Below the pieces are notes generated by a model. The model had not been told where the DNA came from and ran no database searches. It worked only from the letters and a program-made list of their open reading frames with translations. A stretch of 43,141 nt of DNA from a virus: positions 1 through 43,141 of IMG/VR virus record IMGVR_UViG_3300050120_000109, one strand, 5' to 3'. A program made the position numbers and the translations under genes. This document shows positions 1-43,141 of the stretch, in pieces. Each line of letters begins with the position of its first letter. Within the stretch, counting starts at the first letter, position 1.

Positions 1-127
1 TGTAGGCAAGCGCCTGGTCGGCAAGCGCGCGGTCGGCGGTCACCCAAATCTCGCAATTGGTGTCGCGGGCAAAGTTCCCGTTCGGCAGCACAATGACGAA
101 TTCGCCGTGCTCGTTCTCGTGGACGCG
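1..127. repeat. 127-bp terminal direct repeat, identical to 43015..43141. This is a contig-end overlap implying a circular, permuted or terminally redundant unit of about 43,014 bp.
   Basis: Base-by-base comparison: 'tgtaggcaagcgcctggtcgg...ctcgtggacgcg' occurs at both ends. Confidence 0.95.
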
Positions 128-812: not shown

Positions 813-1183
813 CGGTGCGTTGCTCTCGATCTGCCGGTGCGGTATCGCTCTCGGTCCAGTAGTTGTCTCACGTCTAGCGGGCCGGTTCAAGATAAAACGT
901 CTCTAGTAACGGGCCTTTCTTTCCGACGTTCGCATGCAATCGGCCTAACGGCGCTGGCGGCGTTGGGTGACCTATACGCGCATGGGTGACGCGTCGCCGC
1001 GCCACGCGCGAATGTTGCATTTAGGTTATGACCGTAACACGGCTTGCCTTACTTACTTATGTCACTCGAATGTATGTATATATTGGGCTGACGGGCGGCG
1101 GTTACGGTGGGATTACGCACAACGTCTTGGCGTAATCTGCGGCCGGTCGGGTTCGGTGTTGAATTACGCTTGCGTTTGCCGCC
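813..1183. promoter_or_regulatory. Divergent intergenic control region between the minus-strand early operon and the plus-strand terS operon
   Basis: There is no credible ORF. It contains motif copy CTCTAGTAACGG (901..912), an AT-rich patch (about 1009..1087), the inverted repeat GATTACGC-N11-GCGTAATC (1111..1137) and AATTACGC (1162..1169). Confidence 0.6.
901..912 (-). repeat. Copy 1 of the conserved CCGTTACTAGAG motif (minus orientation)
   Basis: Exact 10-mer GTTACTAGAG on the minus strand. It is intergenic, about 88 nt upstream of the minus-strand ATG at 812. Confidence 0.9.
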
Positions 1184-1876
1184 ATGTTCCGGGCGATGGG
1201 TGCTGAGCAAACTTCGATGGAGTTCCGGACGCTGGTGGATATCGATGATATCCGGGCAGCGGTCGAACGCGACGTGTTGGCGCGGGCTGGCGCTGCGCTG
1301 CCTGAACTGACGCATCAGCAACAGTTGTTCGTCGCTGAATACATGATCGATCTGAACGCGACGAAGGCGGCGGTTCGGGCTGGTTACTCGGCGCGCACGG
1401 CGGCGCAAATCGGCTCGCGCCTGTTGAGTAATGTTGAGGTTTCCAGGCAAATCAACGCCTTGCTGACGCGTCGGCTCCGTGCGGCACAGTTGACGGGTGA
1501 CGCGGTGTTGCAGGAGCTACGAAAGATTGCCTTCTCGGACGTGCGCGCGCTCTATGCTGCCGATGGTGAGTTGCTGCCGGTCGGGAAGTTGCCCGATGAG
1601 ATTGCGGCGTGCATCTCGTCTATTGAGGTCGATGAACTGACGCTCGGGGCTGGCGATAAAAAGCGGGTCATTGGCTCGTCCAAGAAAGTCCGGCTGCACC
1701 CTAAACTTGAGGCGCTCAAGATGCTGGCTCAACACTTCAAACTGTTGGGCGAGACTCGGCCGCACGGGGCGGAAATCGAAGGGGAGGTCGTGCCGATGGA
1801 TGAAGGGATGTCGCCGGAAGAAATGCGGGCGGCGGTCGTGAAGCTGATGCAAGCCGGTCTGGGGCGCATCGGATGA
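1184..1876 (+). CDS. terS: Terminase small subunit (Terminase_2-type)
   Basis: 'LTHQQQLFVAEYMIDLNATKAAVRAGYSARTAAQIGSRLLSNVEVSRQI' matches the classic small-terminase HTH signature. The gene is first in the late operon. The start could instead be 1196 or 1217. Confidence 0.9.
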   Translation: MFRAMGAEQTSMEFRTLVDIDDIRAAVERDVLARAGAALPELTHQQQLFVAEYMIDLNATKAAVRAGYSARTAAQIGSRLLSNVEVSRQINALLTRRLRAAQLTGDAVLQELRKIAFSDVRALYAADGELLPVGKLPDEIAACISSIEVDELTLGAGDKKRVIGSSKKVRLHPKLEALKMLAQHFKLLGETRPHGAEIEGEVVPMDEGMSPEEMRAAVVKLMQAGLGRIG

Positions 1877-2172
1877 AGAACCGGGTTCTAACGGCGTTGG
1901 AATTGCGCGCGCTGGCTGCGGCGGAAGATCACGGCGCGATCGTGCTGATGGGTGACGCGGCGCCTCGGACCTTGAAGGCGGGCGGCTGTAACCTGTGCGT
2001 TCCCATGTCGGTGTTGCTGTCGCTGATTGGTGACCATCTGCTGACGTTCGGGACGCGGCGGCGGCTGGTGCCGACTGACGAAGGGCGGGCCGCGCGCCGG
2101 GCTGGGTCGTGTGACGCCTTCGCTCAGTGGGCGGTTGCCGATCGGGTGGCGGAGGTCCTCCATGGCACATGA
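1873..2172 (+). CDS. Hypothetical protein (99 aa)
   Basis: The start overlaps the terS stop (ATGA). It is on the same strand within a tightly packed operon. Confidence 0.5.
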   Translation: MKNRVLTALELRALAAAEDHGAIVLMGDAAPRTLKAGGCNLCVPMSVLLSLIGDHLLTFGTRRRLVPTDEGRAARRAGSCDAFAQWAVADRVAEVLHGT

Positions 2173-2650
2173 CGCGGAAGGGCCTCGCGGCTGCATCCTC
2201 CCCGACGCTGGGGCGCCGGGCGATGTCGTGCGGCTGGTCGGCGTGCTGGGCGTGTCCATCGGGGCGCTGACGCGGCAAGTCGAGTTGTGTGAGCGGGCGG
2301 CGGCGCAAGGGGCTGCCATTAGTCCACACGCGCTGCTGACCAGTGCGGGGCTGTTGGAAGTCTGCGCGGCTCGGTTGCGGGCTGCGGCGCCGGCTGGTCC
2401 AGCGGCGCCGGTCGATCCGACGCAAAGGATTGCCGCCGCGTTCGACACGCTGGAATGGATGCTGACGATCGCACGCGACCGGGACGGGGTTATCGTGCCG
2501 ATGACGCCAAAGCAGGCGAAGGTGACGGCGGACCTGCTGGGTAAGACGGCGGACGCTCTTGCCGAGTTGTCGCGTGGCTACTCCGTCGCCGCTGGGGAGT
2601 TCTATGCCGTCGCGGCGCTCGGGGGCGGCGATGGACCTGCTATCGGCTGA
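2162..2650 (+). CDS. Hypothetical protein (162 aa)
   Basis: An internal ATG at 2162 within ORF 2111..2650 overlaps the end of the previous ORF. The amino-acid composition looks plausible. Confidence 0.5.
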   Translation: MAHDAEGPRGCILPDAGAPGDVVRLVGVLGVSIGALTRQVELCERAAAQGAAISPHALLTSAGLLEVCAARLRAAAPAGPAAPVDPTQRIAAAFDTLEWMLTIARDRDGVIVPMTPKQAKVTADLLGKTADALAELSRGYSVAAGEFYAVAALGGGDGPAIG

Positions 2651-3437
2651 GACCGTCGCGGCTGCCGTGGCTGCGATGACGCTGGATGAATTGCGCCAGG
2701 TCATCGCGTTGGAAAGGGCGATTGATGAGCGAACGCGGTATCGGCGGCTGTGGACATACTACCCGGACGATGGGCCGCTGCGGCGCGCGCTGTATCCGAA
2801 GCATCTCAAGTTCTTCGCCGATGGGCTGGAACATCGCGAGCGTCTCTTCCTCGCCGCGAACCGGGTTGGCAAGACGGAAGGCGCTGGCGGCTACGAGTCG
2901 GCGTTGCACCTGACGGGCCTCTATCCGCCTTGGTGGGTCGGGCGGCGGTTCCACAAGCCTGTCACGGGCTGGGTCGCGGGTAAGACGAACGAAACGACGC
3001 GCGACATCGTGCAAGCCAAGCTGTTCGGCGATGTCCAGTTCATCGGGCCTCGTAAGCGGCTGCGCGGGACGGGGCTGGTGCCGCTGTCGTGCATCGGTGA
3101 GTTGGCGTGGAAGCGCGGCTCCGACCTGCTGGACAGGGCGCACGTTCGCCATCATGGGCCGGACGGCAAGCAAGATGGCTGGTCGAAAGTCGGCCTCAAG
3201 TCCTACGAACAGGGGCGCGGCGCGTTCGAGGGCACGGAACAGCACTTCGTCTGGTTGGACGAAGAACCGCCGATGCCGATCTACACCGAATGCCTGGTGC
3301 GCACGATGACCACGGGCGGGATTGTTATGCTGACGTTTACGCCGCTGGAAGGCATGTCCGAAGTGGTGCTCGCCTTCCTGCCGGGTGGCGAGTTGCCGGG
3401 CGGCGGCGGCGGGCGTGGGAGCGAACCGTACGACTGA
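2631..3437 (+). CDS. terL: Terminase large subunit, N-terminal ATPase fragment (268 aa). It ends with its own stop codon.
   Basis: It has a Walker A-like 'NRVGKTEGAG', a Walker B 'HFVWLDEEP' and a coupling motif 'MLTFTPLEG'. It ends in a Gly-rich tail 'PGGGGGRGSEPYD*'. No nuclease domain follows in frame. Confidence 0.85.
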   Translation: MDLLSAETVAAAVAAMTLDELRQVIALERAIDERTRYRRLWTYYPDDGPLRRALYPKHLKFFADGLEHRERLFLAANRVGKTEGAGGYESALHLTGLYPPWWVGRRFHKPVTGWVAGKTNETTRDIVQAKLFGDVQFIGPRKRLRGTGLVPLSCIGELAWKRGSDLLDRAHVRHHGPDGKQDGWSKVGLKSYEQGRGAFEGTEQHFVWLDEEPPMPIYTECLVRTMTTGGIVMLTFTPLEGMSEVVLAFLPGGELPGGGGGRGSEPYD

Positions 3438-3449
3438 GAGGGAAAGCCT

Positions 3450-4325
3450 ATGACCGAGGAAACAAAACCCGCCGGCGGATCTGCAGGACAGGAAGATTGT
3501 CACATCGCCGGCGAACTGCCTGCGGGGTCCAAGCCGCTCTGCGAGGGTGGCTGTGACTACTCGTTGCCGGGCGCCGCGCCGCGCGATGGGATCGGGCTCG
3601 GGCCGGTGCTGGCCTTCTGCCGGCGTTGCGATGGCCTCAACCCGCTGCTGAGTAACTCGGGTGACCATGCTGTGGTCGCGCTGTCCGAGACTATCCGGGC
3701 CTTCATGTTGCAACCCCTGCCGCCTGCTGCGACCGTCTACGGCGGCTTGACGAGTGAACCGGTGCCGGTGCTGCGCCATCCCGAAGTCGTAGACGCGGAG
3801 ACGCGGGCTAAGCTGCGGCTGTCGGTAGCGGCCTCGGACGGCGGTGCGGCGCTGCTGGACGACTCGGCTGTCGATCGCTTCGCGGCGGTGATGAAGGCTA
3901 AACTGACGGAAAAGCGGGCGGAGGGAAAAGGCGGCTGGTGGACGGCGGATAGACATGCCCTGTGGGCGGCGCTGGAAGCGCACGTCCACATGGAACGCCC
4001 GGTCGATGTCGCAAACTATGCGATGATGGTTTACCTCACGGACACGCAAAGCCCGTCGCGCCGGGTGGTGATGACACGCTACCGTAGGCATCGCGGCGGT
4101 TTGGGGGAGTCCATGGACACGGTCATCCTCGTGGGTGACCACGCGGACCTGTGCCGCGTGATCGCGGACGACTTCGCGTGGTCGGGTGAGAAGATGGGCC
4201 GGGTGACGGTCGAGCGATACGGCTTCGACGCCCGGATCGGCTGGGACACGCACCTCGTCTGCGTCGATGGGGCGGCGGTCGGCTACACGGACGGGCCGCT
4301 CGCGCCGGCCGAGGGGGCGAAGTGA
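3450..4325 (+). CDS. Hypothetical protein with a central MazG-like (all-alpha NTP pyrophosphohydrolase-like) segment, located inside the terL insertion
   Basis: RBS GAGGGAAAG lies upstream. 'FAAVMKAKLTEKRAEGKGGWW...LWAALEAHVHMERPVDVANYAMMVY' resembles the MazG/dNTP-PPase helix pair. The N-terminus is Cys-rich. Confidence 0.6.
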   Translation: MTEETKPAGGSAGQEDCHIAGELPAGSKPLCEGGCDYSLPGAAPRDGIGLGPVLAFCRRCDGLNPLLSNSGDHAVVALSETIRAFMLQPLPPAATVYGGLTSEPVPVLRHPEVVDAETRAKLRLSVAASDGGAALLDDSAVDRFAAVMKAKLTEKRAEGKGGWWTADRHALWAALEAHVHMERPVDVANYAMMVYLTDTQSPSRRVVMTRYRRHRGGLGESMDTVILVGDHADLCRVIADDFAWSGEKMGRVTVERYGFDARIGWDTHLVCVDGAAVGYTDGPLAPAEGAK

Positions 4326-4651
4326 CCGCGCGCTGTGCCGGTGGCTGCCTCTATGCCCGGCCGGTCGGCACGTCGCGTGACCGCTGCTGCGTCAAGTGTG
4401 AAAACCCGGAACCCGGCCTAGACGATGTCTCGATGTTGGACCGCATAAGCTGGGCCATCTGCGCGTGTGACCGGCAATGCCGGCCGGTCTGTCCTGCCAC
4501 GCGGCTGCGCGCGCGTTCGATCTTGGCGCTGTTGGCGTGCCCGACGCGACCGATGGTCATCGCTGGCGGAAACATGGCGGGCGGCAGTGACCCGGTCACG
4601 ATCTGGCGGGCGATGTGCCTCGAAGCCGCGAAGGATGTTCCCTACGCATAA
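4322..4651 (+). CDS. Cys-rich hypothetical protein (109 aa)
   Basis: A GTG start overlaps the upstream stop (GTGA). The gene is inside the terL insertion. Confidence 0.5.
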   Translation: MTARCAGGCLYARPVGTSRDRCCVKCENPEPGLDDVSMLDRISWAICACDRQCRPVCPATRLRARSILALLACPTRPMVIAGGNMAGGSDPVTIWRAMCLEAAKDVPYA

Positions 4652-4670
4652 AGCGTGGGGCTGTGGGGGT

Positions 4671-4680
4671 GTTACTAGAG
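4671..4680 (+). repeat. Copy 2 of the GTTACTAGAG motif (plus orientation)
   Basis: Exact 10-mer that directly abuts the ATG at 4681. Confidence 0.9.
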
Positions 4681-5103
4681 ATGATGAACGACAGGCCAAT
4701 CGACAACCCGACACTGCAAAAGGCGCTGGACGAGGTTAAGCAAACCATGCGGCGCTACGGGTTCGCCGGGTGCGTCATGCTCGTGTCGCCAACCGAAGCG
4801 GCATACGGCTACAGCATGCACGCGCCATGGTCGGCCATTCGTTACGACGGGACAACGCCGCTCGGTTTCCGGTTCCGGGCACAGTCGCAAGTCGATGGCG
4901 AGGAAGTGGCGCACCGTCGCATCGAAGGCGCGATGCACACGATCTGCCAGCTATCCGACTTCGGCGAACAGACAACGATGTGGATGGAAGACCTAAAGCT
5001 GATGCTGCGTCGCGCCGGCATCGAGTTCGATCACACGCCGTTCGGCGGCAGGGTGCTGGAACACCTGGTGCTGGGTGAACCGCCGCCGCCTACCGATGGG
5101 TGA
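4681..5103 (+). CDS. Hypothetical protein (140 aa)
   Basis: Internal ATG at 4681 (MMNDRPIDNPTLQKALDEVKQTMRRYGF...). The composition is globular-looking. Confidence 0.6.
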   Translation: MMNDRPIDNPTLQKALDEVKQTMRRYGFAGCVMLVSPTEAAYGYSMHAPWSAIRYDGTTPLGFRFRAQSQVDGEEVAHRRIEGAMHTICQLSDFGEQTTMWMEDLKLMLRRAGIEFDHTPFGGRVLEHLVLGEPPPPTDG

Positions 5104-5317
5104 CACCGTCTCGGCGTCGGACTGGGGCGACTTCGCAGCGGCGCCAAGGGACGGGACATACATCGACGCGTGGGCGGGCGGTTGCCGGCTGTGCGATGTC
5201 TACTGGTGCGATGAGGGGGACGGGTGGGCCAAGGATGGCAGCCTGATCCTGTTCCCGCACAGGCTAACCCATTGGCGACTGGCGCCGGGGCCTCCGAACG
5301 GTCACGGCCATAGGTAA
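5096..5317 (+). CDS. DUF551-like small phage protein (73 aa)
   Basis: ATG at 5096 overlaps the upstream stop. 'W...PRDGTYIDAW...WCDEGDGW...LTHWRLAPGPP' resembles the DUF551 pattern, whose C-terminus is typically thW.plP.pP. Confidence 0.55.
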   Translation: MGDTVSASDWGDFAAAPRDGTYIDAWAGGCRLCDVYWCDEGDGWAKDGSLILFPHRLTHWRLAPGPPNGHGHR

Positions 5318-5322
5318 CGAGT

Positions 5323-6066
5323 ATGAGTAAAGCCGTTACGATGGCGACATGGGATGATGTCCCACACTTGACCGATAAAGACAAAGCCGAAATGCTGGCC
5401 GCTATTCCTGAGTGGCAACGCGACGCGCGAAGTAAAGGCGTGCCGCAACTCGGGTCTGGCGCAATCTATCCGGTGTCGGAAGACGACGTTGTCATCCCGC
5501 CGTTCGCAATCCCGGCGTTCTGGCCTCGGGGCTATGCTCTCGATGTGGGCTGGAATTGCACATGCGCGTTGTTCGGGTCGCACGATCGGGAGACCGATAC
5601 CCTCTACGTCTACAACGAGCATTATATGGGGAAAGCTGAGCCAAGCACCCATGCAACCGCCATCCATGGGCGTGGGAAGTGGCTGCAAGGGGTTGTCGAT
5701 CCGGCTGCGCGCGGGCGCTCGCAAAAGGATGGCGAGCAACTCATCCAGAACTATCGCGACTTGGGCTTGATCTTGTCGCCGGCAATCAACGGGGTCGAGT
5801 CGGGCATTTTCGAGGTCTGGCAACGTCTCGTGACGGGCCGGCTCAAGTTCTTCTCGACGCTGTCGAACACGCGCGCCGAATACCGGCTCTATCGGCGCGA
5901 CGCGAAGGGGCACGTCGTCAAGGTGATGGACCACGCAATGGACACGCTCCGCTACTTGGTGATGTCCGGTATTCATGTCTTCTCGACTGATCCGGGTTAC
6001 CTGCACAAGCTGGGGCACAAGCCCGGCGTCCTGTCGGAATATGATCCGCACGCCATGACAGAGTGA
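5323..6066 (+). CDS. terL: Terminase large subunit, C-terminal nuclease fragment (247 aa) with its own ATG
   Basis: 'ATWDDVPHLTDKDKAEMLAAIPEWQRDARSKGVPQLGSGAIYP...GYALDVGW...VVDPAARGRSQKDG...VMDHAMDTLRYLV' is the typical RNaseH-fold terminase nuclease half. It starts 5 nt after the preceding stop. Confidence 0.85.
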   Translation: MSKAVTMATWDDVPHLTDKDKAEMLAAIPEWQRDARSKGVPQLGSGAIYPVSEDDVVIPPFAIPAFWPRGYALDVGWNCTCALFGSHDRETDTLYVYNEHYMGKAEPSTHATAIHGRGKWLQGVVDPAARGRSQKDGEQLIQNYRDLGLILSPAINGVESGIFEVWQRLVTGRLKFFSTLSNTRAEYRLYRRDAKGHVVKVMDHAMDTLRYLVMSGIHVFSTDPGYLHKLGHKPGVLSEYDPHAMTE

Positions 6067-6217
6067 CCGGTAGGCGGCAGTGGCGGGGAAACCTGACGCT
6101 GTAAAATAACGGTGCGTAATTAAAACATTACGCTGGAATTACGCAAAACGCCGCGTCTACCCATGCACCCCTCAACGCCGGGCAACCCCGTGCGGCGGCT
6201 GGGGAGGGTCACGAACC
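6067..6217. promoter_or_regulatory. Intergenic region with an ATTACGC motif cluster
   Basis: GCGTAAT (6114..6120), CATTACGC (6127..6134) and AATTACGC (6137..6144). There is no ORF. Confidence 0.5.
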
Positions 6218-6433
6218 GTGTGCATGGGTTCCTCGATGCCATCGGCGCCGCCGCCGCCGCCTCCGCCTCCGCCTGCGCCACAAGCGCCTGATGCCGCTGT
6301 CGGCGCTGCCGGCAATGCGGCTGCGTCGCGTGCTGGTGCGGCCGGTGGACCGATGGCGATGATTGCCAACATGGGCGGGCCGCAAGGTCTGGTTACCCCG
6401 CCTGCCACCACTGGCAAGGCGCTGATGGGCTGA
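6218..6433 (+). CDS. Small Pro/Ala/Gly-rich protein (71 aa)
   Basis: RBS GGGGAGGG lies 9 nt upstream of GTG 6218. It includes a run of nine prolines. It is low-complexity, so it remains uncertain. Confidence 0.4.
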   Translation: MCMGSSMPSAPPPPPPPPPAPQAPDAAVGAAGNAAASRAGAAGGPMAMIANMGGPQGLVTPPATTGKALMG

Positions 6434-6696
6434 TGCCCGCGCTTCCCCCTTTCGTGATCTGTCACGGCATCAACGCAAAGCTGATGCTGGGTCCGACCGG
6501 CTGGACAACGCAACGGGTCGGCGCTCTGTCGTTCAACACGCCGGAAGAGGCGCGCGACTGGGCAAGGTCTGAGCGCAAGGGCCATCCCGCGCTGTTCCCG
6601 AATGCGCCTTGCACCTTCGTGGATAAGGCGATGCCGGAAGAGGTCCTCGGCGCGGCCGTCATGACCCACGACTACGACCCACACGGCGGCTGCTGA
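6433..6696 (+). CDS. Hypothetical protein (87 aa)
   Basis: It overlaps its neighbours at start and stop (TGATG at both ends). The composition is plausible. Confidence 0.5.
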   Translation: MPALPPFVICHGINAKLMLGPTGWTTQRVGALSFNTPEEARDWARSERKGHPALFPNAPCTFVDKAMPEEVLGAAVMTHDYDPHGGC

Positions 6697-8417
6697 TGTC
6701 GGGGGCAAGTCTCGCTCAAGTCCGCGAACCGCCGGCCATGATGTTCGCCGGCCGCTGGGCGTCGGTCACAGAACTGCGCAAGAAATACGACTCACGGATT
6801 GCGGCGATGGAAACCGCCCGGCTGTCGTGGTGGTCGTCGTATCGCGAGTTGTCGCGTTTCATCCGCCCGCGCCTCGGCCGGTTCAATGACACGCCGAATC
6901 AACCGCGTGGCGCCTCGCGGACGCAACGGATCATCGACGACACGGCAACCCAGGCGTCCAAGCGGTTCGGCGCCGGGCTGCAATCGGGTGTCTCAAGCCC
7001 GGCGCGGCCGTGGTTCAAGCTGAAGCTCGCCCGCAAGGCAGTGGTGCCCGGCTCGCCGGCCGCGATGTGGCTGGATGAAGTCCAGAAACGAATGTTCGAT
7101 GTCCTGTCGGGGTCGAACGCCTATCGCTCGCTTGCCTCGATCTATGAGGAAGTGGGCGTTTTCGGCTCCGCGGTCATGCTGGTGTATGAGGATTTCGATG
7201 ACGTAATCCGCTGCTACCCTCTGACCGCTGGCGAATACTACCTCGCGGTAGACGATCGCCTCGATCCCGCGACGCTCGGCCGCAAGTTCGTGATGACGGT
7301 CGGCGCGATGGTCGGCAAGTTTGGTATCGACAACGTTTCAGAAACAGTCGGCCGGCTCTATCGCGACAACGTCCTCGACCAAGAATTCATGGTCTCGCAC
7401 CTGATCTGCAAAAACGACGCGCGGATTGTGGATGCCTTCGGGGTCGCTGGCGCGCCTTGGGTCGAGGCGTTCTGGGAGTGGGGTTCGTCGCAAGATTGCC
7501 TGCTGCAACTGAAGGGCTACCAAGAAAAGCCATTCATGGCGGTGCGCTGGGACGTGACCAGTTCGGACGCCTATGGCGGCTGCCCTGGGATGGACTGCAT
7601 CGGTCAGGTCAAGATGCTGCAAACGCTGCAACGGCGGATGTCGCAAGCGGTCGATAAGACGGTTAACCCGCCGCTGGTCGCCGATGCCGGGCTGCGTAAC
7701 GAACCGGCGACGGCAATTCCCGGCGGCGTGACTTACATCCCGGCCGGCGCGAACACGATCGGGTTCAAGCCGCTGTACGAAATCCGGCCGGACCTGTCTG
7801 CGATGCAGTCGATCATCGCGGCGGTTCAAAAACGGATCCAATCCGCCTTCTTTGAAGACTTGTTCCTGATGATTTCGCAGTTGGACACAACGCGAACCGC
7901 AACCGAAATCACGGAACGCAAGGAAGAGAAGATGCTGATGCTCGGGCCGGCGCTGGAGCGTCTGCACGATGAACTGCTGATGCCGTTTGTCGAGCGGCTG
8001 TTTGCCGTGATGTTGCGGTTCAAGATGTTCCCGGCTCCGCCTGCCGATGTCCAAGGCAACCACATCGGCGTCGAGTTCGTGTCGATCCTGGCGCAAGCAC
8101 AGAAGGCGGTTGCAACGGCCTCGATCGAGCGGCTGTTCGCCTTCGTCGGATCGATCGCCGGCATCAAGCCCGAAGTCACGGACAACGTCGATGCCGACGA
8201 AGCGGTGCGGGAATATGCCGACATGATCGGCGCGCCGGCCGGCCTGGTGGTCGATCTGGACGCGGTCAAGGCGGCTCGCGCGGCACGCCAGCAACAGGCG
8301 CAACAACAGGCGTCACTACAGCAGGGCCTCGCGGCTGCGACCGGGGCGAAAACACTGGCTCAGACCGATATCGGCGGCGGCGCGAACGCGCTGCAACGTG
8401 TCACCGGTATGGGCTGA
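6696..8417 (+). CDS. Portal protein (T7 gp8 / head-to-tail connector type)
   Basis: The size is 573 aa. 'WWSSYRELSRFIRPRLGRF...SPARPWFKL' matches the connector-family N-terminal signature. It sits after the terminase genes. Confidence 0.9.
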   Translation: MSGASLAQVREPPAMMFAGRWASVTELRKKYDSRIAAMETARLSWWSSYRELSRFIRPRLGRFNDTPNQPRGASRTQRIIDDTATQASKRFGAGLQSGVSSPARPWFKLKLARKAVVPGSPAAMWLDEVQKRMFDVLSGSNAYRSLASIYEEVGVFGSAVMLVYEDFDDVIRCYPLTAGEYYLAVDDRLDPATLGRKFVMTVGAMVGKFGIDNVSETVGRLYRDNVLDQEFMVSHLICKNDARIVDAFGVAGAPWVEAFWEWGSSQDCLLQLKGYQEKPFMAVRWDVTSSDAYGGCPGMDCIGQVKMLQTLQRRMSQAVDKTVNPPLVADAGLRNEPATAIPGGVTYIPAGANTIGFKPLYEIRPDLSAMQSIIAAVQKRIQSAFFEDLFLMISQLDTTRTATEITERKEEKMLMLGPALERLHDELLMPFVERLFAVMLRFKMFPAPPADVQGNHIGVEFVSILAQAQKAVATASIERLFAFVGSIAGIKPEVTDNVDADEAVREYADMIGAPAGLVVDLDAVKAARAARQQQAQQQASLQQGLAAATGAKTLAQTDIGGGANALQRVTGMG

Positions 8418-20157: not shown

Positions 20158-20508
20158 ATGGCGCAACATTACATTCTCGGTGATGAGTGCAACCCGGTCG
20201 CGGTCGAATTCGATGAGTGGGTGCAGTGGTTCGGCACGGCTGATCGGCAAATCGCGGTCACCCAGGTTGATGTCGAAGGCTGTCAGGCAATCGTCTCGAC
20301 GCAGTTTATCGGCGTCGATCCCCGCCCGGAAATCCCCGGTCTGACATGGGAGGGGGCGGCGCTGCTGTTCGAAACGCTGGTTATCGGCGGGCCGCTGCAC
20401 TCGTGCGTCGTGAAATACGCGACGGTCGATGATGCCGGGCGCGGTCATGTCGTCGTGGTCGATCGCGTCGATAAGGCAATCAAGGAAGCGATAGACAATG
20501 CCCGATGA
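20158..20508 (+). CDS. Small conserved phage protein (116 aa)
   Basis: AGGAG lies 9 nt upstream of ATG 20158. The sequence is 'DEWVQWFGTADRQIAVTQVDVEGCQAIVSTQFIGVD...LFETLVIGG'. Confidence 0.65.
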   Translation: MAQHYILGDECNPVAVEFDEWVQWFGTADRQIAVTQVDVEGCQAIVSTQFIGVDPRPEIPGLTWEGAALLFETLVIGGPLHSCVVKYATVDDAGRGHVVVVDRVDKAIKEAIDNAR

Positions 20509-23500
20509 TTTCGCGTCGTTCGTAACCTCGACGCTGGGCGGGCCTGTCGCGCCGGCCGCTGGGGCTGCGCCTGGTGCTGTCGGCGGGCTGCCGTCGCCGG
20601 CCAACGATATCGGCGGCGGGTTCCCGGCGTTCATGAAGTCGATGCACCTGGCTACGGCGCAAGCCGCCAAGGGGGCGGTTGGCGCGGCGGCTGATGTCAA
20701 CCCCGACGAAGCGGGCAAGGCGGTGCAGCTCGCCCCGCAACTGGGGCTGCCGGCGTCGGTCGTGGAAACCGACGTTCCCGGCTTCACGCAACAGGCGGCG
20801 GCGGCAAAGAGCAACGCGCTGATCGATGGCAATCCGGTGCTGGCCTCGTGGCTGGCGGCAAACCCGGACGCTGCCCGCATCGCGAAGGACGACTTCGACA
20901 AGCTGGACGTGGTGACGAAGGCGGCAACCGCGCTCAAGTCGGGATGGACGGGCGCCTTTGCCGGTGATCAACGCGGCCGGCTGGGTATGCAAACCATGCT
21001 GGGCGACAACTCGCCGGCAACCGCCGCGTCGATCGCCGGCTTCGACAAGCAGCTTGCCGCCAGTCCGCAACTGTCCGGGGTCTATGGCGCGCTGCAAAAG
21101 GTGACCGGGTTCGCGGGCGGGCTGCTGGATAACTTCCTGCACTCGGCGCCGGAAGCCTATGTAGGGGCCGCTGTGGGCGGCGCTGGCGGGCTGGCGGGCG
21201 GCGGGCCTGCCGCACCTGTCACGGGCGCTGTGGGCGCCATAGGCGGCGCTGCCGTGGGCCTCGGCGTGGGGTTCAAGTGGGATATGTCGCAAATCGCGGC
21301 CGGTAACACTTACCTCGATCTCGGGAACGTCAAAGGGGCGGGTGGGGAGTCGATCGGCGAAAGCGCCAAGCAGGCGGCGGCGGTGCTGGTCGGGATCGGG
21401 ACGTATGCGCTCGCCGGCCTCGGCGGCAAGGCGTCGGGTGTGCCGCAAGCGGCCTCCGGGCTGCTGTCGGACGCGATCAAGGAATCCGTCGTGCAACCGA
21501 CCGTCGCCCGCGCGCTGGGGCAGTTCGCCGGCAAGCTGGCGGCGGGTGGTGCCGAGTTCGCCGCGATCAACGCCGGCATGGAAGGGACGAGCATCTTCGG
21601 GACTGAGTTGGCGAAGCAACTCTCGGCCGGGGATTTCGATACCGTGTTCAACGACCCGGTCACACGGCAACAGGTCATCGACAACCTGATGAGTGCCGCG
21701 CTGGATGGCGCGATGCTGGGGCCGCTGGTGCGGGTGCCCGGCGCTGCCATGGGGTTTGCCGAGTCCTCGATCCGGGCGCGGCAGGCGGCGTCTGATGTCG
21801 AAGCCTTCCATGCGCTGGAAACCGGCACGGCCGATAGCCGGATGCGGGGCCGGTCGCTGGATGCCTTCCACGCCTTCCTTGCCCGGCAGACTGACGGCGC
21901 GCCTACCGAAAACCTGTTCCTGCCGGCTGATCGGGTGCGGGAGTTGTATCAGTCGGCCGGCATCGAACCGGGCGCCGATGATGGCCTGCTGGGCAAGGTG
22001 GCGCCGGATATCGCGGAGCAGCTTGACCAGGCGCAACACACGGGCGGCGATGTCGTCCTCCCCACGGCCGCGTATGTCACGCATCTGGCCGGCACGCCGC
22101 TATCGGACCATCTCCGCCCGGATATCCGGGTCCGGCCGGATGCCATGTCGGCGCGGGAGGCGATGGATTTTCAAAGCAAGCGGGCGGAGTGGCTCGCCGA
22201 TCAGGTCGCCAGCACACACGCCGAAATGGAGCATGAACAGGCGGCGGCCGGGCCTGAGCGGGATGTGTTCGACGACGTGTTCTCGCAACTGCGCGGGGCC
22301 GGTCATACCGTCGATGCGGCGCGGCAATACGCCGCTGTCGTGGCGGCGCGCTACGGTGCCCGTGCGGCGCGTCTGGGGCCTGATGCCGGCTCCGCGCTCG
22401 ATCTCTACCATCAAGCCGGGCTGACGGTGCAGCGGGCGGTGCCGGACGATCTGGCGGCGCTGCCGGTGACCGATACCGACATGGTCCTCAACGCGCTGCG
22501 GCAGGGTGGCAAGCGGCTGCCGTCCACGCGCGACCTGATGGGGCCGAACCTGACGGAGTTCGTCAAGGATCGCGGCGGCGTCTACGACGACACGGGCGAC
22601 TTGCGGGCGATGGACCTGCAACGCGAACGCGGGCTGATCCGCATTCAGAAAAAAACCGGCCTGCAATGGGAAAGCAAAGCCGGCCGCACGATCAACGATC
22701 ATCACGTCGCGGCCTGGGAGCAAGGCTATTTCCCGGAACACGGCAACGATCCAACGTTCGATGACCACGACTTTGTCAACGCTCTGGCGGCGGAGTCGAG
22801 GGGTGACCGGCGGTATGCGCTGGGCAACGTCGATGAACGGCGCAAGGGGTTCTCCGATGCCGCCGCGTCGATGGACCGCTGGTTGGACGACAACAATATC
22901 GATCTCGATCACGTCACGAATGACGATGTAAAGCGGATGCTGGCGCAACATGCCGGCGACGCGGCCGATGCCTATGACCAGTCGGCCTATCACGGCTCGC
23001 CGCATGTCTTCGATAAGTTCGATAGTGCGAAGATTGGCACCGGTGAAGGCGCGCAAGTCTTTGGGCACGGCCTCTACTTCGCCGGCAACAAGGGGATTGC
23101 CCGGTATTACCGCGACGCGCTGAGCAAGGGCAAAACGGTTGGCGGTGTGCCGTCCACGGAATTGAGCAAGGGCGCGCAAACCGCGTTGCGGATGGCGCGC
23201 GATATGGGCGGCGTGGCGCGGGGTCTGCGGGAATATGAGACGCTGATCGCGGCGGAAAAGCGAGCGGTCGAAGAACACGAAAGGATTGTTGCCGACCTGA
23301 AGGCGCACCCGGAAAAACAAGACCGGGACGCGGAAGGCTGGGGCGACCTCGGTGGGCATCTGTCCGGCGTCGAAGCTGATCTCGCCTATCGCAAGGAACG
23401 GCTGGCGCATTACGAAGAAACCCTCGCCGGCTTTAAGGAGTTGGAAGGCAAGGAAATCAAGGGCGACGGCCGGCTGTTCCATGTCGATCTGCCGGAAGAT

Positions 23501-26500
23501 CACGAATACTTGGATTGGGACAAGCCGCTAAAGGATCAACCGGCGCATGTGCGGGCGGCGCTGCATGCGCTGGGGGTATCGGGTGATTTCCAGTGGTCGG
23601 ATAAGCAGCCGATCGGCGGGGGTGACCATGCCTGGATGATGACCGACACGGGCGGCGGGCCGTGGGCAACGCAACGCGCGATCATCCGCACCTTTGGTGA
23701 CAAGTTCGAAGTCGAGTTAATGCACGAGGTGCGGCCGGATGATAACGAATCGCGGGGCCGCACGTTCGATTCGCTTGACGAAGCCAAAGCCTACACCGAA
23801 ACGGCGGTCGATAAGGCCGGCTGGGGGTCGCGCGGTTCGGACGCCTACCACGACCTTGCGCGCAAGCTGGTGGCGCCGGTTGACCCGGAAGCGCGGAACG
23901 AAGGCAACCCTCCGGGCTGGGGTCATGTGGAACCTGAGCATAGGGAAGATCCTGCCGCCGCCAGCAGGGCGTTACTAGAGCATGGGGTCGTGGGCGTGCG
24001 TTACCTCGATGCGGGCAGTCGCGGCAGTGAAGGCGGCACCCACAACTATGTCGTGTTCGATGATAAGCGGGTGACGGTCAAATCTTTCGAGCAACGCAAG
24101 GGCGATGAGCCACGCGGCAAGATCACGCTGGAAGACGGCCGCGCGATCATTACGCTGTTCGCGAAAGCGGACCTGTCCACCTTCCTGCATGAAACTGGGC
24201 ATCTCTGGCTTGATGAAATGGTCCAGGACGCCGCAAGGCCGGACGCACCGCAAGGCATCCGTGATGACATGGCTGCAATCCTCAAGTGGATGAAGATCGA
24301 AAGCCCGGACCAGATTGACACCGAACAGCATGAACTGTTCGCGCGCGGCTTCGAAGCCTACCTGATGACCGGCAAGGCGCCATCGGCCGCACTGGTCGGG
24401 GCGTTCCGCAAGTTCAAGGCGTGGATGGTCTCGATCTATCAAAACGCGCTGGGCCTGCGCGCGCCGATCAACGACCAAATGCGCGCGGTAATGGATCGTA
24501 TGCTCGCAACCGACAACGAGATTGACGCGGCGCGGGCCTCTGAGCGGCACGGGGCGCTGTTCCGCGACGCGGCCTCGGCCGGCATGACCAATGCCGAATT
24601 TGCCGCCTACACCGGGGCGGTGTCGGCCGCGCGCGATCAGGCATCCGACCGGCTGTTGCGGCGGGCGATGGAAGCGATCAGGGCGCAACGGACGAAAAGC
24701 TACCGGGAGGAACGCGCCGGCATCCGCGACGATGTCGAGCGACAAATGCGCACGCAACAGGATCAGCGGGCGCAATACTGGCTCCGCACGGGCCGGATGC
24801 TGGATGACCCGGAAGCCGAATCGGGGGTGCCGCATCAACGGCTCTCGGGGCATGCGATCAAAGGCATGTATGACAACGATGGGGTCTTCGACCTGCTGCC
24901 AAAGGGCACCTATTCGATGGTGCATGCCGGCATCCAACCGGCTGACGTGGCGGAAATGTTCGGCTACCGCGACGGGCAAGGGCTGGTCTCGGCGCTGATG
25001 AACCTTGAAGCGCGGCGCAAAAAAGCCGTCGCGGACACCGGCAAGCCGCTGGATGGCATGGGGTTCCTCGCGCACCAGGTCGACCAGGAAACCGATCGGC
25101 GGATGATGGAGCGGCGCGGCGATGCGCTCGCCGATGGGTCGATCGAGGAAGAGGCGCTCGCGGCCGTCCACAACGCCGCGCAAGCTGATGTCATGGCAAC
25201 CGAGTTGCGGGCGCTCGCGCGCAAGGCCGGGGAAAACCCGCCGTTTTCCATGGCCTCGTTGAAGCAGTGGGCCGCGTCCACCATCGCGGACCTGCCGGTT
25301 GACCGCGGCGCATACCCCGGCACGTATCGCCGCTCGGAAGCGCGCGCCGGCCGGGAGGCGGAGCGGGCGTTGCTGAAAGGTGACCTGCCCGCCGCGTGGC
25401 AGGCGAAGCAGCGGCAATTGGTCAACCATCTGCTGGCGACGGAAGCCGATCTCGCGAAGGATGATTACGACGCTGGTAAAAAACTGTTTCAGCGGTTCGC
25501 CGGCCGGGGCGCGTTCGCCGGCATCGATCAAGCTTATACTGACCGTATCCACGAACTGTTGAAACGGTTCGGCTTTCAAACGTCGCGCTCTGATGATGAG
25601 TTGGGCAGGGGCCTGGGCGCGCAAACCCTCGAAGGCTTCGTGCAAACAAAGTCGGCCGATGGCTACGAAATTACCATCGATCCGGCGTTCTTCGATCCGC
25701 GTCTCGCGAAGCCGTTGGACGATCTGACCACGGAAGAATTCCGCGCGCTCAAGGATGCCGTCACGTCGCTGGCGCATGTCGGCCGGATGGAAAAGTCCGT
25801 GGTGGTCGAAGGGCAAAAGCTGGAATTGTCCGAACTGGTGGCGGAGGGTGTTGACCAGTTGAAGGACTGGAAACGGTCGGACGTGCCGGCCGAGATCAAC
25901 GCCGGTACCGCGACGGGATTCCGGGGCCTGCTGGAAAAGGTCTCGTCGCTGATGCGCACGGCCGATGCCGGCATGCTGAAGCAAGAGCAGGTCTTCGATT
26001 GGCTGGACAACCGCAAGGCTGACGGCGTGTTCAACCGGGTGGTGTTCGAACCGCTCAAGGCGGCGCAGCACCGCGAAAACGACCTTATGGTGATGCTGAC
26101 GGGCCGGCTCAAGGCGCTGCATGAAACCATGCCGGACGGCTGGGAAAAGGGCCTCGGCGTCTCCAAGGTGATGCCGGAATTGATCGATGAGCGGACGGGC
26201 AAGCCGTTCAAGTTCCGCCATCAAGATATCCTCGCGTTGGCTTTGAACACGGGCAACGCGGTGAACGCGGACAAGCTGGCGCGTGGCTACGGCTGGGACC
26301 GGGGCGATATCAAAACCGTCCTCGATCGCGAAATGACGGAACACGACTGGAATTTCGTGCAAGGCATCTGGGACACCTTTGAAACGTTGTGGCCGGATAT
26401 CGAAAGCCTCACGCGGCGGATGACCGGGCTGGGGCCGGAAAAGGTCGAAGCGGTGCCGGTGCAAACCCCGCACGGTGAGTTCCGGGGCGGGTATTATCCT

Positions 26501-42997: not shown

Positions 42998-43141
42998 TCA
43001 GATCGGCTGGGTGATGTAGGCAAGCGCCTGGTCGGCAAGCGCGCGGTCGGCGGTCACCCAAATCTCGCAATTGGTGTCGCGGGCAAAGTTCCCGTTCGGC
43101 AGCACAATGACGAATTCGCCGTGCTCGTTCTCGTGGACGCG
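42998..43141 (-). CDS. 3' end of the junction-spanning hypothetical ORF (same gene as 1..340)
   Basis: Continuing the reading frame across the 127-bp overlap ends in TGA at 42998..43000. Confidence 0.6.
   Translation of the reverse strand, partial: RVHENEHGEFVIVLPNGNFARDTNCEIWVTADRALADQALAYITQPI
43015..43141. repeat. Second copy of the 127-bp terminal direct repeat
   Basis: Identical to 1..127. Confidence 0.95.

What the first reader, a model, noticed from the sequence alone, without database searches (positions are those of the whole stretch)
2631..6066. Large terminase gene split into separate ATPase and nuclease ORFs by a 1.9-kb, four-gene insertion
What the sequence shows:
- ORF 2631..3437 (268 aa) has the full ATPase signature (Walker A-like NRVGKTEGAG, Walker B FVWLDEEP, coupling motif TFTPLEG). 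It stops after a Gly-rich tail.
- ORF 5323..6066 (247 aa) starts with its own ATG at '...ATWDDVPHL' and carries the nuclease half (DVGW, DPAARG, DHAMDTLRYLV).
- The two halves add up to 515 aa.
- As I recall this TerL family, the TFTPLxG...FL segment and the TWDDxPHL segment sit a few residues apart in one polypeptide of about 500 aa.
- The intervening 1,885 bp (3438..5322) holds four same-strand ORFs packed with overlaps or gaps of 30 nt or less. They are a MazG-like protein, a Cys-rich protein, a hypothetical protein and a DUF551-like protein.
- I recognise no intein blocks, no homing-endonuclease motifs (LAGLIDADG, GIY-YIG, HNH) and no obvious intron-like AT-rich structure.

Possible explanations are a two-polypeptide terminase, an unusual splicing event, or an accessory-gene landing pad in the inter-domain linker of an essential gene.
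Basis: partly seen in the sequence, partly recalled or inferred. Interest (0 to 1): 0.8.

Follow-up and report, generated by a model that had tools for sequence, protein, structure and literature searches.

The report
Two-gene phage terminase with cargo genes
This phage makes its DNA-packaging enzyme from two separate genes, as hundreds of its relatives do, and four unrelated small genes have settled in the gap; the surprise is that the cut lies inside the ATPase module, not between the ATPase and the nuclease.

Summary
The ORFs are real and at the stated coordinates. TerL-N (2631..3437) and TerL-C (5323..6066) are separated by four same-strand coding ORFs, in a complete circular ~43-kb podovirus-like genome with no second terL.

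The insertion probably did not split the gene. Of 171 related loci, 89 are split at the same position and 82 are fused. The window lies in a ~50-locus clade in which every member is split. Its nearest relatives after one sister contig have adjacent halves with ATGA stop/start overlaps. All 120 best database hits to each half are half-length proteins. Spacers range from -4 nt to several kb with unrelated cargo.

Both halves are under strong purifying selection (dN/dS 0.02 and 0.11). No intron, intein, homing endonuclease or frameshift signal was found.

The break is not at the ATPase-nuclease linker. Pfam coverage and alignment to the D6E TerL structure place the lid subdomain and linker at the start of the "nuclease" ORF. 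The architecture is ASCE core | lid+linker+nuclease.

Best reading: a two-polypeptide terminase whose inter-gene gap behaves like an ordinary site for accessory-gene insertion. I found no paper describing this architecture.

The parts
1..127 (.). Terminal direct repeat, identical to 43015..43141. It marks a circularly closed assembly, so the window is the whole genome (~43.0 kb).
   Evidence: P0121 shows the contig is 43141 nt long
1184..1876 (+). Small terminase subunit (TerS)
   Evidence: Pfam Terminase_2 E 2e-32, phrog_51
1873..2650 (+). Two extra small ORFs (1873..2172 and 2111..2650) between TerS and TerL-N. This junction also carries inserted genes (758 nt, versus overlap in relatives).
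   Evidence: no family hits
2631..3437 (+). TerL-N, the ASCE ATPase core (268 aa). Walker A-like residues 76-84, Walker B plus catalytic Glu 208-212, coupling motif TFTP 235-238. The tail 259-268 is Gly-rich and disordered.
   Evidence: Terminase_6N model positions 1-150 only; phrog_31467 E 2e-76; invariant motif residues; AF2 mean pLDDT 84; best fold match D6E TerL; dN/dS 0.023
3450..4325 (+). Cargo ORF1 (291 aa), a lineage-specific orphan. It starts 12 nt after the TerL-N stop, behind a GAGGGAAAG ribosome-binding site.
   Evidence: the only homolog is in L004; PHROGs of unknown function only; dN/dS 0.28
4322..4651 (+). Cargo ORF2 (109 aa, Cys-rich). Its start overlaps the ORF1 stop by 4 nt.
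   Evidence: dN/dS 0.38; no family hit
4681..5103 (+). Cargo ORF3 (140 aa from ATG 4681; the mechanical ORF starts at 4615). It is deleted in frame in the sister contig L004, which keeps only the ATG and the last 5 codons.
5096..5317 (+). Cargo ORF4 (73 aa from ATG 5096; the mechanical ORF starts at 5075). It overlaps the ORF3 stop.
   Evidence: dN/dS 0.29; no DUF551 or other Pfam hit
5323..6066 (+). TerL-C (247 aa), comprising lid subdomain, linker and RNase H-like nuclease. Its ATG lies 5 nt after the ORF4 stop, with AGGT at -11..-8.
   Evidence: dN/dS 0.107
5338..5442 (+). TerL-C residues ~6-40. This is the ATPase lid subdomain, carrying the invariant W10, D12, H15, L16, R36, K38 and G39. 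It has low confidence when modelled without the N half.
   Evidence: Terminase_6N model 151-212 maps here in the in-silico fusion; aligned to D6E residues ~195-229 containing lid residues Y213, M216 and R224; pLDDT 33-65
5443..5478 (+). TerL-C residues ~41-52, the equivalent of the D6E interdomain linker (residues 230-241).
5479..6066 (+). Nuclease domain proper (residues ~53-247), with catalytic-type Asp at D74, D203 and D207.
   Evidence: 4DKW match from residue 43; invariant columns
6218..6696 (+). Two further small ORFs (6218..6433 and 6433..6696) between TerL-C and the portal gene.
6696..8417 (+). Portal (head-to-tail connector) protein
   Evidence: Pfam Head-tail_con E 1e-144

Best explanation
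The phage belongs to a large lineage in which the large terminase is encoded by two genes and works as two polypeptides.
- terL-N encodes the ASCE ATPase core.
- terL-C encodes the ATPase lid subdomain, the interdomain linker and the RNase H-like nuclease.

Shown:
- The split is at the same position in 89 of 171 related loci.
- It is universal in the ~50-locus clade that contains the window.
- It is typically an overlapping stop/start (ATGA).
- Both halves are under strong purifying selection.

Inferred:
- The two proteins are made from one late transcript (TerS, TerL-N, cargo, TerL-C, portal).
- They re-associate non-covalently. The conserved 40-residue head of TerL-C docks as the lid onto the ASCE core by fragment complementation. 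This rebuilds a normal ATPase domain that carries the nuclease.
- Because the boundary is a true intergenic gap, it accepts accessory genes like any other gap in the module. In this phage four orphan genes sit there, and one of them has been lost again in the sister contig.
- The cassette is a passenger. It did not cause the split.
For: Locus census:
- 89 split against 82 fused loci, with spacers from -4 nt to several kb.
- 39 of 68 measurable split loci overlap or lie within 30 nt. Spacers of -4, -1 and -8 nt dominate.

Phylogeny:
- The window sits in an all-split clade. The neighbours L105, L108, L144 and L031 are adjacent ATGA splits.

Protein databases:
- The best 120 hits to the N half are 213-326 aa with Terminase_6N only.
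- The best 120 hits to the C half are 238-331 aa with Terminase_6C only, and they start at the same N-terminus.
- 74 of 150 representatives of 50%-identity clusters are stand-alone N halves.
- The split occurs in isolate genomes, so it is not an assembly artefact: Acetobacter musti, Aminobacter, Comamonas, Azospirillum, Acidovorax.
- Example gene calls: N 263 aa and C 282 aa overlapping by 8 nt.

Selection and integrity:
- dN/dS is 0.023 for the N half and 0.107 for the C half.
- Catalytic motifs are invariant.
- The genome is complete and has no second terL.

Break point:
- Pfam model coverage, the D6E alignment and paper, the 4DKW construct start, extra Foldseek alignment columns to full-length D6E, and low pLDDT of the conserved C-half head.

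Independent initiation:
- SD-like motifs precede 23 of 43 adjacent C starts, against a 22% background.

Gap behaviour:
- Spacers over 250 nt occur at N|C in 36 of 89 split loci, and at C|portal in 19 of 35 split and 18 of 33 fused loci.
- Cargo is unrelated between loci.
- No promoter-like sites and no more terminator-like sites than in shuffled sequence were found in 900..6800.
Against: - There is no direct evidence that the two polypeptides assemble or package DNA.
- No isolated, plaque-forming phage with this split was found among 50,697 phage records. The only one is MAG-derived MW202785.1.
- The docking of the lid in trans is inferred from homology and single-chain models. I could not run a complex prediction.
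- The lid mapping rests on a low-identity stretch of a profile alignment (overall E 2e-8), although three independent lines agree.
- From memory, T4 gp17 domains expressed separately did not reconstitute packaging in vitro, but that cut was at a different position.
- The ancestral-split inference uses a neighbour-joining tree.
- The window plus L004 form their own branch, so independent re-insertion into an already split gene is inferred and was not observed.
Confidence: 0.8

Rival explanations
1. A recent insertion of the four-gene cassette broke a previously intact terL.
For: About half of the wider family is fused. The nearest annotated phages, EBPR podovirus 1 and CV-1-33, have intact TerL of 480 and 474 aa. 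The root of the NJ tree reconstructs as fused.
Against: - Every member of the ~50-locus clade around the window is split.
- The closest relatives outside the window/L004 pair have adjacent halves with ATGA overlaps and the same conserved 'MSKxVV.ATWDD' start.
- The window's C half starts with that same conserved Met-Ser-Lys head.
- N-tail plus C-head lengths match those of the adjacent splits.
Confidence: 0.08
2. The 1.9-kb region is a self-splicing intron (group I or II) carrying ORFs, and a spliced mRNA encodes a single-chain TerL, as in Vibrio phage ICP1.
For: terL introns are real. ICP1 terL is spliced, and one exon had been left without a predicted function (PMC10448857). Rfam cannot detect undescribed intron classes.
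Against: - No intron family appears even at E<=1.
- Only 12 nt and 5 nt of the 1885 nt are non-coding. All four ORFs show coding periodicity and dN/dS below 0.4.
- Relatives have zero intervening sequence, overlapping stop and start codons and their own start codon, which leaves nothing to splice.
- ORF3 can be deleted cleanly without touching the rest.
Confidence: 0.03
3. The halves are joined at the protein or translation level, by a split intein (trans-splicing), programmed frameshifting or ribosomal bypass.
For: Inteins are common in this family. L005's C half has an intein-domain match just under the Pfam cutoff, and 21 of 150 representatives have an intein-sized insert after Walker A. 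Candidate recoding has been proposed for Streptomyces-phage ter genes (PMC10732093).
Against: - The N tail is only ~13-19 residues and the C head ~9 residues beyond the homologous sequence. That is far too short for split-intein halves.
- No intein domain was found in either window ORF.
- A 1.9-kb bypass is implausible.
- Only 3 of 43 adjacent-split loci have a -1 slippery heptamer near the junction.
Confidence: 0.03
4. The split terL is a pseudogene in a defective element, or an assembly or sequencing artefact.
For: The window and many relatives are metagenomic contigs. Some singleton 'split' loci inside fused clades could be frameshift errors.
Against: - dN/dS is 0.02 and 0.11 for the two halves between two independent contigs that differ by 10-15% in DNA.
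- The same architecture occurs in dozens of isolate genomes and in complete circular viral genomes.
- Start codons and overlaps are conserved.
- Catalytic residues are invariant.
Confidence: 0.03

Closest known systems
Canonical single-chain large terminase (T4 gp17, Sf6 gp2, P22 gp2, D6E TerL)
   Same: The modules appear in the same order: ASCE ATPase core, lid subdomain, short linker, RNase H-like nuclease. The gene sits between TerS and portal. The catalytic motifs are the same. The closest structures are the P22 nuclease domain 4DKW and full-length D6E 5OE8.
   Different: The chain is interrupted by a stop and a new start between the ASCE core and the lid. The lid is therefore covalently attached to the nuclease and not to the ATPase core. 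Published motor models (summarised in PMC5727402) treat the lid as part of the ATPase domain, moving on ATP hydrolysis.
'Genes in pieces' made by free-standing homing-endonuclease insertion (Aeromonas phage Aeh1 nrdA split by mobE; Friedrich et al. 2007 PNAS, cited in PMC5418858 and PMC2988022)
   Same: An essential phage enzyme is encoded as two ORFs with foreign ORFs between them, and the pieces are expected to re-associate. One relative (L005) has a weak HNH-like ORF in the gap.
   Different: The window's cassette has no recognisable endonuclease. Most split relatives have no insert at all. The split is fixed across a deep clade and is not a sporadic insertion.
N4-like phage virion-independent RNA polymerase genes RNAP1/RNAP2, with zero to eight spacer genes (PMC5418858)
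   Same: A two-gene enzyme whose inter-gene gap holds a variable number of unrelated ORFs, sometimes an HNH endonuclease, in different relatives.
   Different: It is a different enzyme. For TerL the two-gene state has not, to my knowledge, been described.
Intron-interrupted terL (Vibrio phage ICP1; PMC10448857) and intein-containing TerL
   Same: terL appears as two or more annotated pieces, and it lies in a hot spot for selfish elements.
   Different: Those are repaired by RNA or protein splicing to give one chain. Here no splicing element is detectable, and relatives have overlapping stop and start codons.
Herpesvirus terminase gene UL15/UL89, with two exons separated by other viral genes (from my own knowledge; 'exon I of UL15' appears in a reference in PMC6843332)
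   Same: A TerL-homologous gene whose two coding parts are separated by unrelated genes.
   Different: The herpesvirus exons are joined by host spliceosomal splicing into one protein, and I recall the intervening genes lying on the opposite strand. I did not test where that exon boundary falls.
Phage morons and accessory-gene islands at intergenic sites
   Same: Small, fast-evolving, lineage-specific ORFs inserted between conserved late genes. The same genome has extra ORFs at TerS|TerL-N and TerL-C|portal.
   Different: No autonomous promoter or terminator was detected for the cassette. Classical morons often carry their own.

Membership tests
Large terminase, Terminase_6 (T4/P22-like) type | ASCE ATPase with Walker A, Walker B plus catalytic Glu, and coupling motif | tested here: met
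   Terminase_6N E 3e-12. NRVGKTEG, WLDEEP and TFTP are invariant in 26 homologs. The AF2 model's best fold match is D6E TerL.
Large terminase, Terminase_6 (T4/P22-like) type | Lid subdomain completing the ATPase domain | tested here: met
   It is present, but on the second polypeptide. Terminase_6N model positions 151-212 map to TerL-C residues ~2-53 in an in-silico fusion. The segment aligns to the D6E lid residues Y213, M216 and R224.
Large terminase, Terminase_6 (T4/P22-like) type | C-terminal RNase H-like nuclease with conserved acidic residues | tested here: met
   Match to the P22 nuclease domain 4DKW at E 1e-14 by sequence and 9e-15 by fold, TM 0.83 on the target. D74, D203 and D207 are invariant.
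Large terminase, Terminase_6 (T4/P22-like) type | All modules on a single polypeptide | tested here: not met
   A stop at 3435-3437 and a new ATG at 5323. The same holds in 89 of 171 related loci and in all 120 best hits to each half.
Large terminase, Terminase_6 (T4/P22-like) type | Position in a packaging module between TerS and portal | tested here: met
   TerS 1184..1876 and portal 6696..8417.
Large terminase, Terminase_6 (T4/P22-like) type | ATP-driven DNA packaging and concatemer cleavage activity | not testable with these tools
   This needs biochemistry or genetics.
Self-splicing intron (group I or II) interrupting a phage gene | Conserved structured RNA core | tested here: not met
   The Rfam 15 permissive scan of 2400..6300 gave no intron family at E<=1. 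The region is 99% coding.
Self-splicing intron (group I or II) interrupting a phage gene | Exons that join in frame to restore one ORF, with intron-less alleles having a continuous gene at the same point | tested here: not met
   Insert-less relatives in the same clade still have a stop and a new start, as an ATGA overlap.
Self-splicing intron (group I or II) interrupting a phage gene | Spliced transcript | not testable with these tools
   No RNA data are available.
Intein or split intein | Hint/intein splicing blocks flanking the break | tested here: not met
   No intein domain in either ORF. Only 13-19 and ~9 extra residues lie at the break.
Homing-endonuclease 'genes in pieces' | A homing endonuclease gene (HNH, GIY-YIG, LAGLIDADG, etc.) in the gap | tested here: not met
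   None of the four cargo ORFs hits any nuclease family in Pfam, NCBIfam, PHROGs or PADLOC. Only relative L005 has a sub-threshold HNH_3 hit.
Homing-endonuclease 'genes in pieces' | Endonuclease-free relatives have the intact gene | tested here: not met
   Insert-free relatives of the same clade are still split.
Accessory-gene (moron-like) island | Variable, lineage-specific gene content at a fixed intergenic position between conserved genes | tested here: met
   Spacers range from -4 nt to several kb with unrelated cargo: HipA-family kinase, DUF1643, HTH protein, orphans. ORF3 is present in the window and deleted in L004.
Accessory-gene (moron-like) island | Own promoter and/or terminator | tested here: not met
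   There were 0 promoter-like sites, and no more terminator-like sites than in shuffles. The scan covers sigma-70-type signals only.

The most novel reading that the evidence does not exclude
A large, previously undescribed branch of tailed phages and prophages runs its packaging motor with a heterodimeric large terminase cut between the ASCE ATPase core and the lid. The 'transmission' lid is then tethered to the nuclease and docks on the ATPase only in trans. This could give properties a single chain lacks:
- ATPase activity gated by assembly with the lid-nuclease subunit.
- A dissociable or sub-stoichiometric nuclease.
- Mix-and-match exchange of halves between phages. N and C identities are less correlated among split loci (r 0.36) than among fused loci (r 0.59).
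- Altered recognition by terminase-sensing Avs defence proteins.

The gap between the two genes would then be a late-expressed slot for cargo genes.
Probability: 0.25. Interest if true: 0.8.

Novelty: new variant of a known kind. Interest (0 to 1): 0.55.

Why it matters
**For this locus.** The result is deflating. The four-gene insertion is an ordinary accessory-gene insertion between two genes. It is not an event that broke an essential gene.

**For the family.** The result is more interesting. Roughly half of the sampled relatives, in phages and in prophages of many Proteobacteria, Acidobacteriota and others, encode TerL as two proteins. The cut is at the ASCE/lid junction, not at the classical ATPase-nuclease hinge.

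**For motor mechanism.** Competing models of force generation give the lid a central moving role: the T4 electrostatic model, the Sf6 'linker' model, and the P74-26/D6E trans-arginine ring models (summarised in PMC5727402). A natural motor in which the lid is not covalently joined to the ATPase core is a ready-made test of how much that covalent link matters.

**For annotation.**
- PHROG 31467, which collects the N halves, is labelled 'unknown function'.
- JGI names the C halves 'hypothetical protein'.
- Pipelines that use TerL as a phylogenetic marker or a completeness marker will mis-handle these genomes unless the two halves are joined.

Tried and rejected
- **Intron:** a permissive Rfam scan of 2400..6300 gave only two chance-level, unrelated hits.
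- **Homing endonuclease or intein in the cassette:** Pfam at E<=10, NCBIfam, PHROGs and PADLOC gave nothing relevant.
- **'MazG-like' and 'DUF551-like' labels:** not reproduced.
- **AP2-domain reading of the 46-aa spacer ORF in MW202785.1:** this was my own recollection. Pfam gave no hit, so I left it as an impression only.
- **Second terL in the genome:** none.
- **Sequence search of the N half against the PDB:** no terminase hit, alone or as a profile. I had to use a predicted fold and a full-length profile instead.
- **An isolated phage with the same split:** Xanthomonas phage DES1 is split at a different site and StenR_269 is fused. The top annotated phage hits are fused apart from MAG-derived MW202785.1.
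- **Cargo homologs in other spacers or elsewhere:** none apart from L004.
- **Frameshift signals at adjacent junctions:** 3 of 43 loci, with no conservation.
- **Literature:** six full-text searches found no description of a TerL naturally divided into two polypeptides at this position. The library lacks most subscription-journal papers, so absence is not proof.
- **L107's apparent 3.9-kb spacer:** it contains a second partial N half and should not be counted as a simple insert.

Full report
**1. The observation**

- ORF 2631..3437 (268 aa) hits Pfam Terminase_6N (E 3e-12) and, much more strongly, PHROG 31467 (E 2e-76). That family has a profile of only 261 positions and is labelled 'unknown function'.
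- ORF 5323..6066 (247 aa) hits PHROG 5653 'terminase large subunit'. It also hits the solved nuclease domain in PDB 4DKW (phage P22) by sequence (1e-14) and by predicted fold (9e-15, TM 0.83 on the target).
- The 1885 nt between them holds four same-strand ORFs. Third-codon-position GC periodicity follows each predicted frame.
- A permissive Rfam scan finds no intron. Pfam finds no endonuclease or intein.
- TerS (1184..1876) and portal (6696..8417) flank the region.
- The window is a whole JGI contig of 43,141 nt with an exact 127-nt terminal repeat, so it is a closed genome. tblastn with intact TerLs finds only the two halves.

**2. Relatives: the split is a family trait**

In the nearest annotated phages, EBPR podovirus 1 and Chlorobiaceae phage CV-1-33, TerL is one gene of 480 and 474 aa. 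A Manatee Spring podovirus (MW202785.1) has two 'large terminase protein' CDSs with a 46-aa ORF between them.

I then fetched 18 IMG/VR loci with the N half. A profile of N halves brought in 79 more viral loci and 79 loci from GTDB genomes. Mapping both halves by tblastn gives 89 split, 82 fused and 12 unclassifiable loci.

The break is always at the same place.
- Fused genes have a median of 28 residues between the TFTPLEG motif and the W of TWDD.
- Split genes have a median N tail of 17.5 plus a C head of 14 residues.
- Among 68 split loci with measurable junctions, 39 have the halves overlapping or within 30 nt. Spacers of -4 nt (ATGA or GTGA, 15 loci), -1 nt (7) and -8 nt (7) are the commonest.
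- The other 29 have spacers from tens of nt to several kb.

Gene calls in public data agree. One example is a Comamonas-associated contig with N 263 aa and C 282 aa overlapping by 8 nt, between TerS and portal.

The split occurs in isolate genomes, so it is not a metagenome artefact. Examples are Acetobacter musti LMG 30640, Aminobacter sp. UC22_36, Comamonas sp. B-9 and several Azospirillum and Acidovorax strains.

Protein databases give the same picture.
- All 120 best hits to the N half (56-71% identity) are 213-326 aa with Terminase_6N only.
- All 120 best hits to the C half (58-74% identity) are 238-331 aa, cover 86-100% of the query, and carry Terminase_6C as their only terminase domain where any domain is on record, apart from one extra PF03237 hit and one extra PF18932 hit.
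- Among the 150 best representatives of 50%-identity clusters, 74 are stand-alone N halves and 58 are fused.

**3. Which came first, the split or the insertion?**

On a neighbour-joining tree of the concatenated halves (169 loci), the window sits in a block of about 50 loci in which every member is split. Its neighbours L105, L108, L144 and L031 (64-68% N-half identity) are adjacent ATGA splits. Their C-half head has the same form, 'MSKxVV.ATWDDVPH', as the window's 'MSKAVTMATWDDVPH'. The most economical reading is that the ancestor already had two overlapping genes and the cassette entered the gap.

The sister contig L004 has 98.5% aa identity in the N half and 93.5% in the C half. Its DNA identity to the window is 85-90%. 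It has the same cassette minus ORF3, retaining ORF3's ATG and last five codons. That is an in-frame deletion.

The cargo ORFs have no homolog in any other locus. ORF1 has only the L004 homolog among 5.8 billion proteins.

Other spacers hold unrelated cargo: a HipA-family kinase, DUF1643, an HTH protein, a beta-helix protein and many orphans. One (L005) has a sub-threshold HNH_3 hit.

As a control, I measured the neighbouring junctions. Spacers over 250 nt occur at these rates:

| Junction | Split loci | Fused loci |
|---|---|---|
| N / C | 36 of 89 | not applicable |
| TerL-C / portal | 19 of 35 | 18 of 33 |
| TerS / TerL-N | 4 of 24 | 0 of 10 |

The N|C gap therefore behaves like an ordinary intergenic site. 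In the window all three junctions carry extra ORFs (758, 1885 and 633 nt).

**4. Are the halves functional?**

- Between the window and L004, dN/dS is 0.023 for TerL-N and 0.107 for TerL-C. It is 0.28-0.38 for the cargo ORFs.
- Walker A, Walker B plus catalytic Glu and the coupling motif are invariant in 26 N halves. The acidic nuclease residues are invariant in 27 C halves.
- AF2 models are confident for the N half (mean pLDDT 84, tail 259-268 disordered) and for C-half residues ~45-230.
- SD-like motifs precede 23 of 43 adjacent C-half starts, against a 22% background. Only 3 of 43 junctions have a -1 slippery heptamer.
- The window's C-half ATG lies 5 nt after the ORF4 stop, with AGGT at -11..-8.
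- No promoter-like site, and no excess of terminator-like sites, occurs in 900..6800. This fits one late transcript.

**5. Where exactly is the cut?**

The cut is not at the ATPase-nuclease hinge.
- The N half covers only positions 1-150 of the 215-position Terminase_6N model.
- Joining N(1-255) to C(2-247) in silico extends the match to positions 1-212 over residues 72-307. The score rises from 46.9 to 59.4 bits.
- This is just as in the natural fused relatives, where Terminase_6C begins only afterwards.
- A profile of 28 fused relatives aligns 'ATWDDVPHL...RDARSKGIP.LGSGAIYP' to chain positions 198-245 of the full-length D6E TerL structure 5OE8.
- After the 3-residue tag offset, the aligned D6E segment contains Y213, M216 and R224. 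The D6E paper assigns these to the lid subdomain of the ATPase domain. It is followed by the ordered linker 230-241 (PMC5727402).

So window TerL-C residues ~6-40 are the lid, ~41-52 the linker, and the nuclease starts near residue 53.

Three further observations agree.
- The 4DKW nuclease construct starts at C-half residue 43.
- Foldseek aligns ~240 columns to full-length D6E against 185 to nuclease-only structures.
- The highly conserved first 43 residues are low-confidence when the C half is modelled alone.

The architecture is therefore ASCE core | lid + linker + nuclease.

**6. Mechanism**

Shown: two genes, both constrained, same operon orientation, overlapping or coupled starts in relatives, and variable cargo in the gap.

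Inferred:
- The two proteins are made from one late mRNA.
- The lid segment at the head of TerL-C packs onto the ASCE core of TerL-N by fragment complementation, possibly together with the N-terminal helices 6-64.
- This restores a canonical ATPase domain that carries the nuclease through the usual linker.
- The cassette is passenger DNA, co-transcribed with the packaging genes.

I could not run a complex prediction or any experiment, so the association step is untested.

**7. Comparison with what is known**

- Gene fragmentation by selfish elements is well known in phages (PMC2988022, PMC8351571, PMC10448857).
- The Aeh1 nrdA 'genes in pieces' case shows that split enzymes can re-associate (Friedrich et al. 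2007, as cited in PMC5418858).
- N4-like RNAP1/RNAP2 genes have 0-8 spacer genes (PMC5418858).
- ICP1 terL has a spliced intron.
- Streptomyces-phage ter genes may use recoding.

I found no paper describing a TerL naturally divided into two polypeptides, or a cut at the ASCE/lid junction. The searchable library is incomplete.

**8. Verdict**

The locus is a genuine two-gene terminase with a four-gene cargo island, and it is one of many. What remains notable is the family-wide architecture and the position of the cut. These are apparently undescribed and bear directly on packaging-motor models and on TerL-based annotation.

Noticed in passing
window 1-127 and 43015-43141: An exact 127-nt terminal direct repeat, the usual signature of a circularly closed assembly. 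The window is a complete ~43.0-kb genome.
   Followed up: partly
window 1873-2650 and 6067-6695: The other two junctions of the packaging module also hold extra small ORFs. TerS|TerL-N has two ORFs in 758 nt. TerL-C|portal has two ORFs in 633 nt, one of them Pro/Ala-rich. None has a family hit.
   Followed up: partly
L005:5571-7868: A relative with a 180-aa ORF in the gap that shows sub-threshold HNH_3 plus a C-terminal HTH. Its C half (583 aa) carries an intein-splicing domain match (34.5 bits against a 35.8-bit cutoff). Two kinds of selfish element sit at one terL.
   Followed up: partly
protein representatives P0246, P0250, P0251, P0262 and others: 21 of the 150 best cluster representatives are stand-alone N halves with an intein-sized insertion immediately after the Walker A motif (query residues ~73-83).
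   Followed up: no
L089:9309-10847 (minus strand): A HipA-family kinase (HipA_C E 3e-42) lies on the opposite strand inside the gap between the two terL halves of a prophage-like contig. L166 has a DUF1643 protein in the same position.
   Followed up: no
L107:12043-12585: The Reyranella locus has a second, partial N half (Terminase_6N, 180 aa) directly upstream of the C half. Its apparent 3.9-kb 'spacer' is therefore a duplication or a tandem element, not a simple insert.
   Followed up: no
L183 (Xanthomonas phage DES1, OK624832.1) 4381-6714: An isolated phage whose TerL is cut at a different place: a 118-aa 'terminase family protein', then a 165-aa hypothetical ORF, then a 398-aa 'large terminase protein'. 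It may be an intron or a HEG case.
   Followed up: no
L013:2545-2640: The C half of this relative has no ATG, GTG or TTG start after the upstream stop. An ATT six nt downstream of GAGGG is the only candidate start.
   Followed up: no
L003:3654-3794 (MW202785.1): A 46-aa ORF fills the gap, with ATGA overlaps at both ends. It reminded me of an AP2-type DNA-binding domain from HNH homing endonucleases, but Pfam gave no hit.
   Followed up: partly
all loci: N-half and C-half identities are less correlated among split-split pairs (r 0.36; 23% of pairs with N>60% have C more than 20 points lower) than among fused-fused pairs (r 0.59; 7%). This hints that halves are exchanged between lineages, but it is confounded by phylogeny.
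   Followed up: partly
window 3435-3452: TerL-N and cargo ORF1 are in the same reading frame, separated only by TGA plus 12 nt. Stop-codon read-through would fuse them. This is probably coincidence.
   Followed up: no
window 20498-27961: A single 2487-aa ORF on the plus strand, not examined.
   Followed up: no
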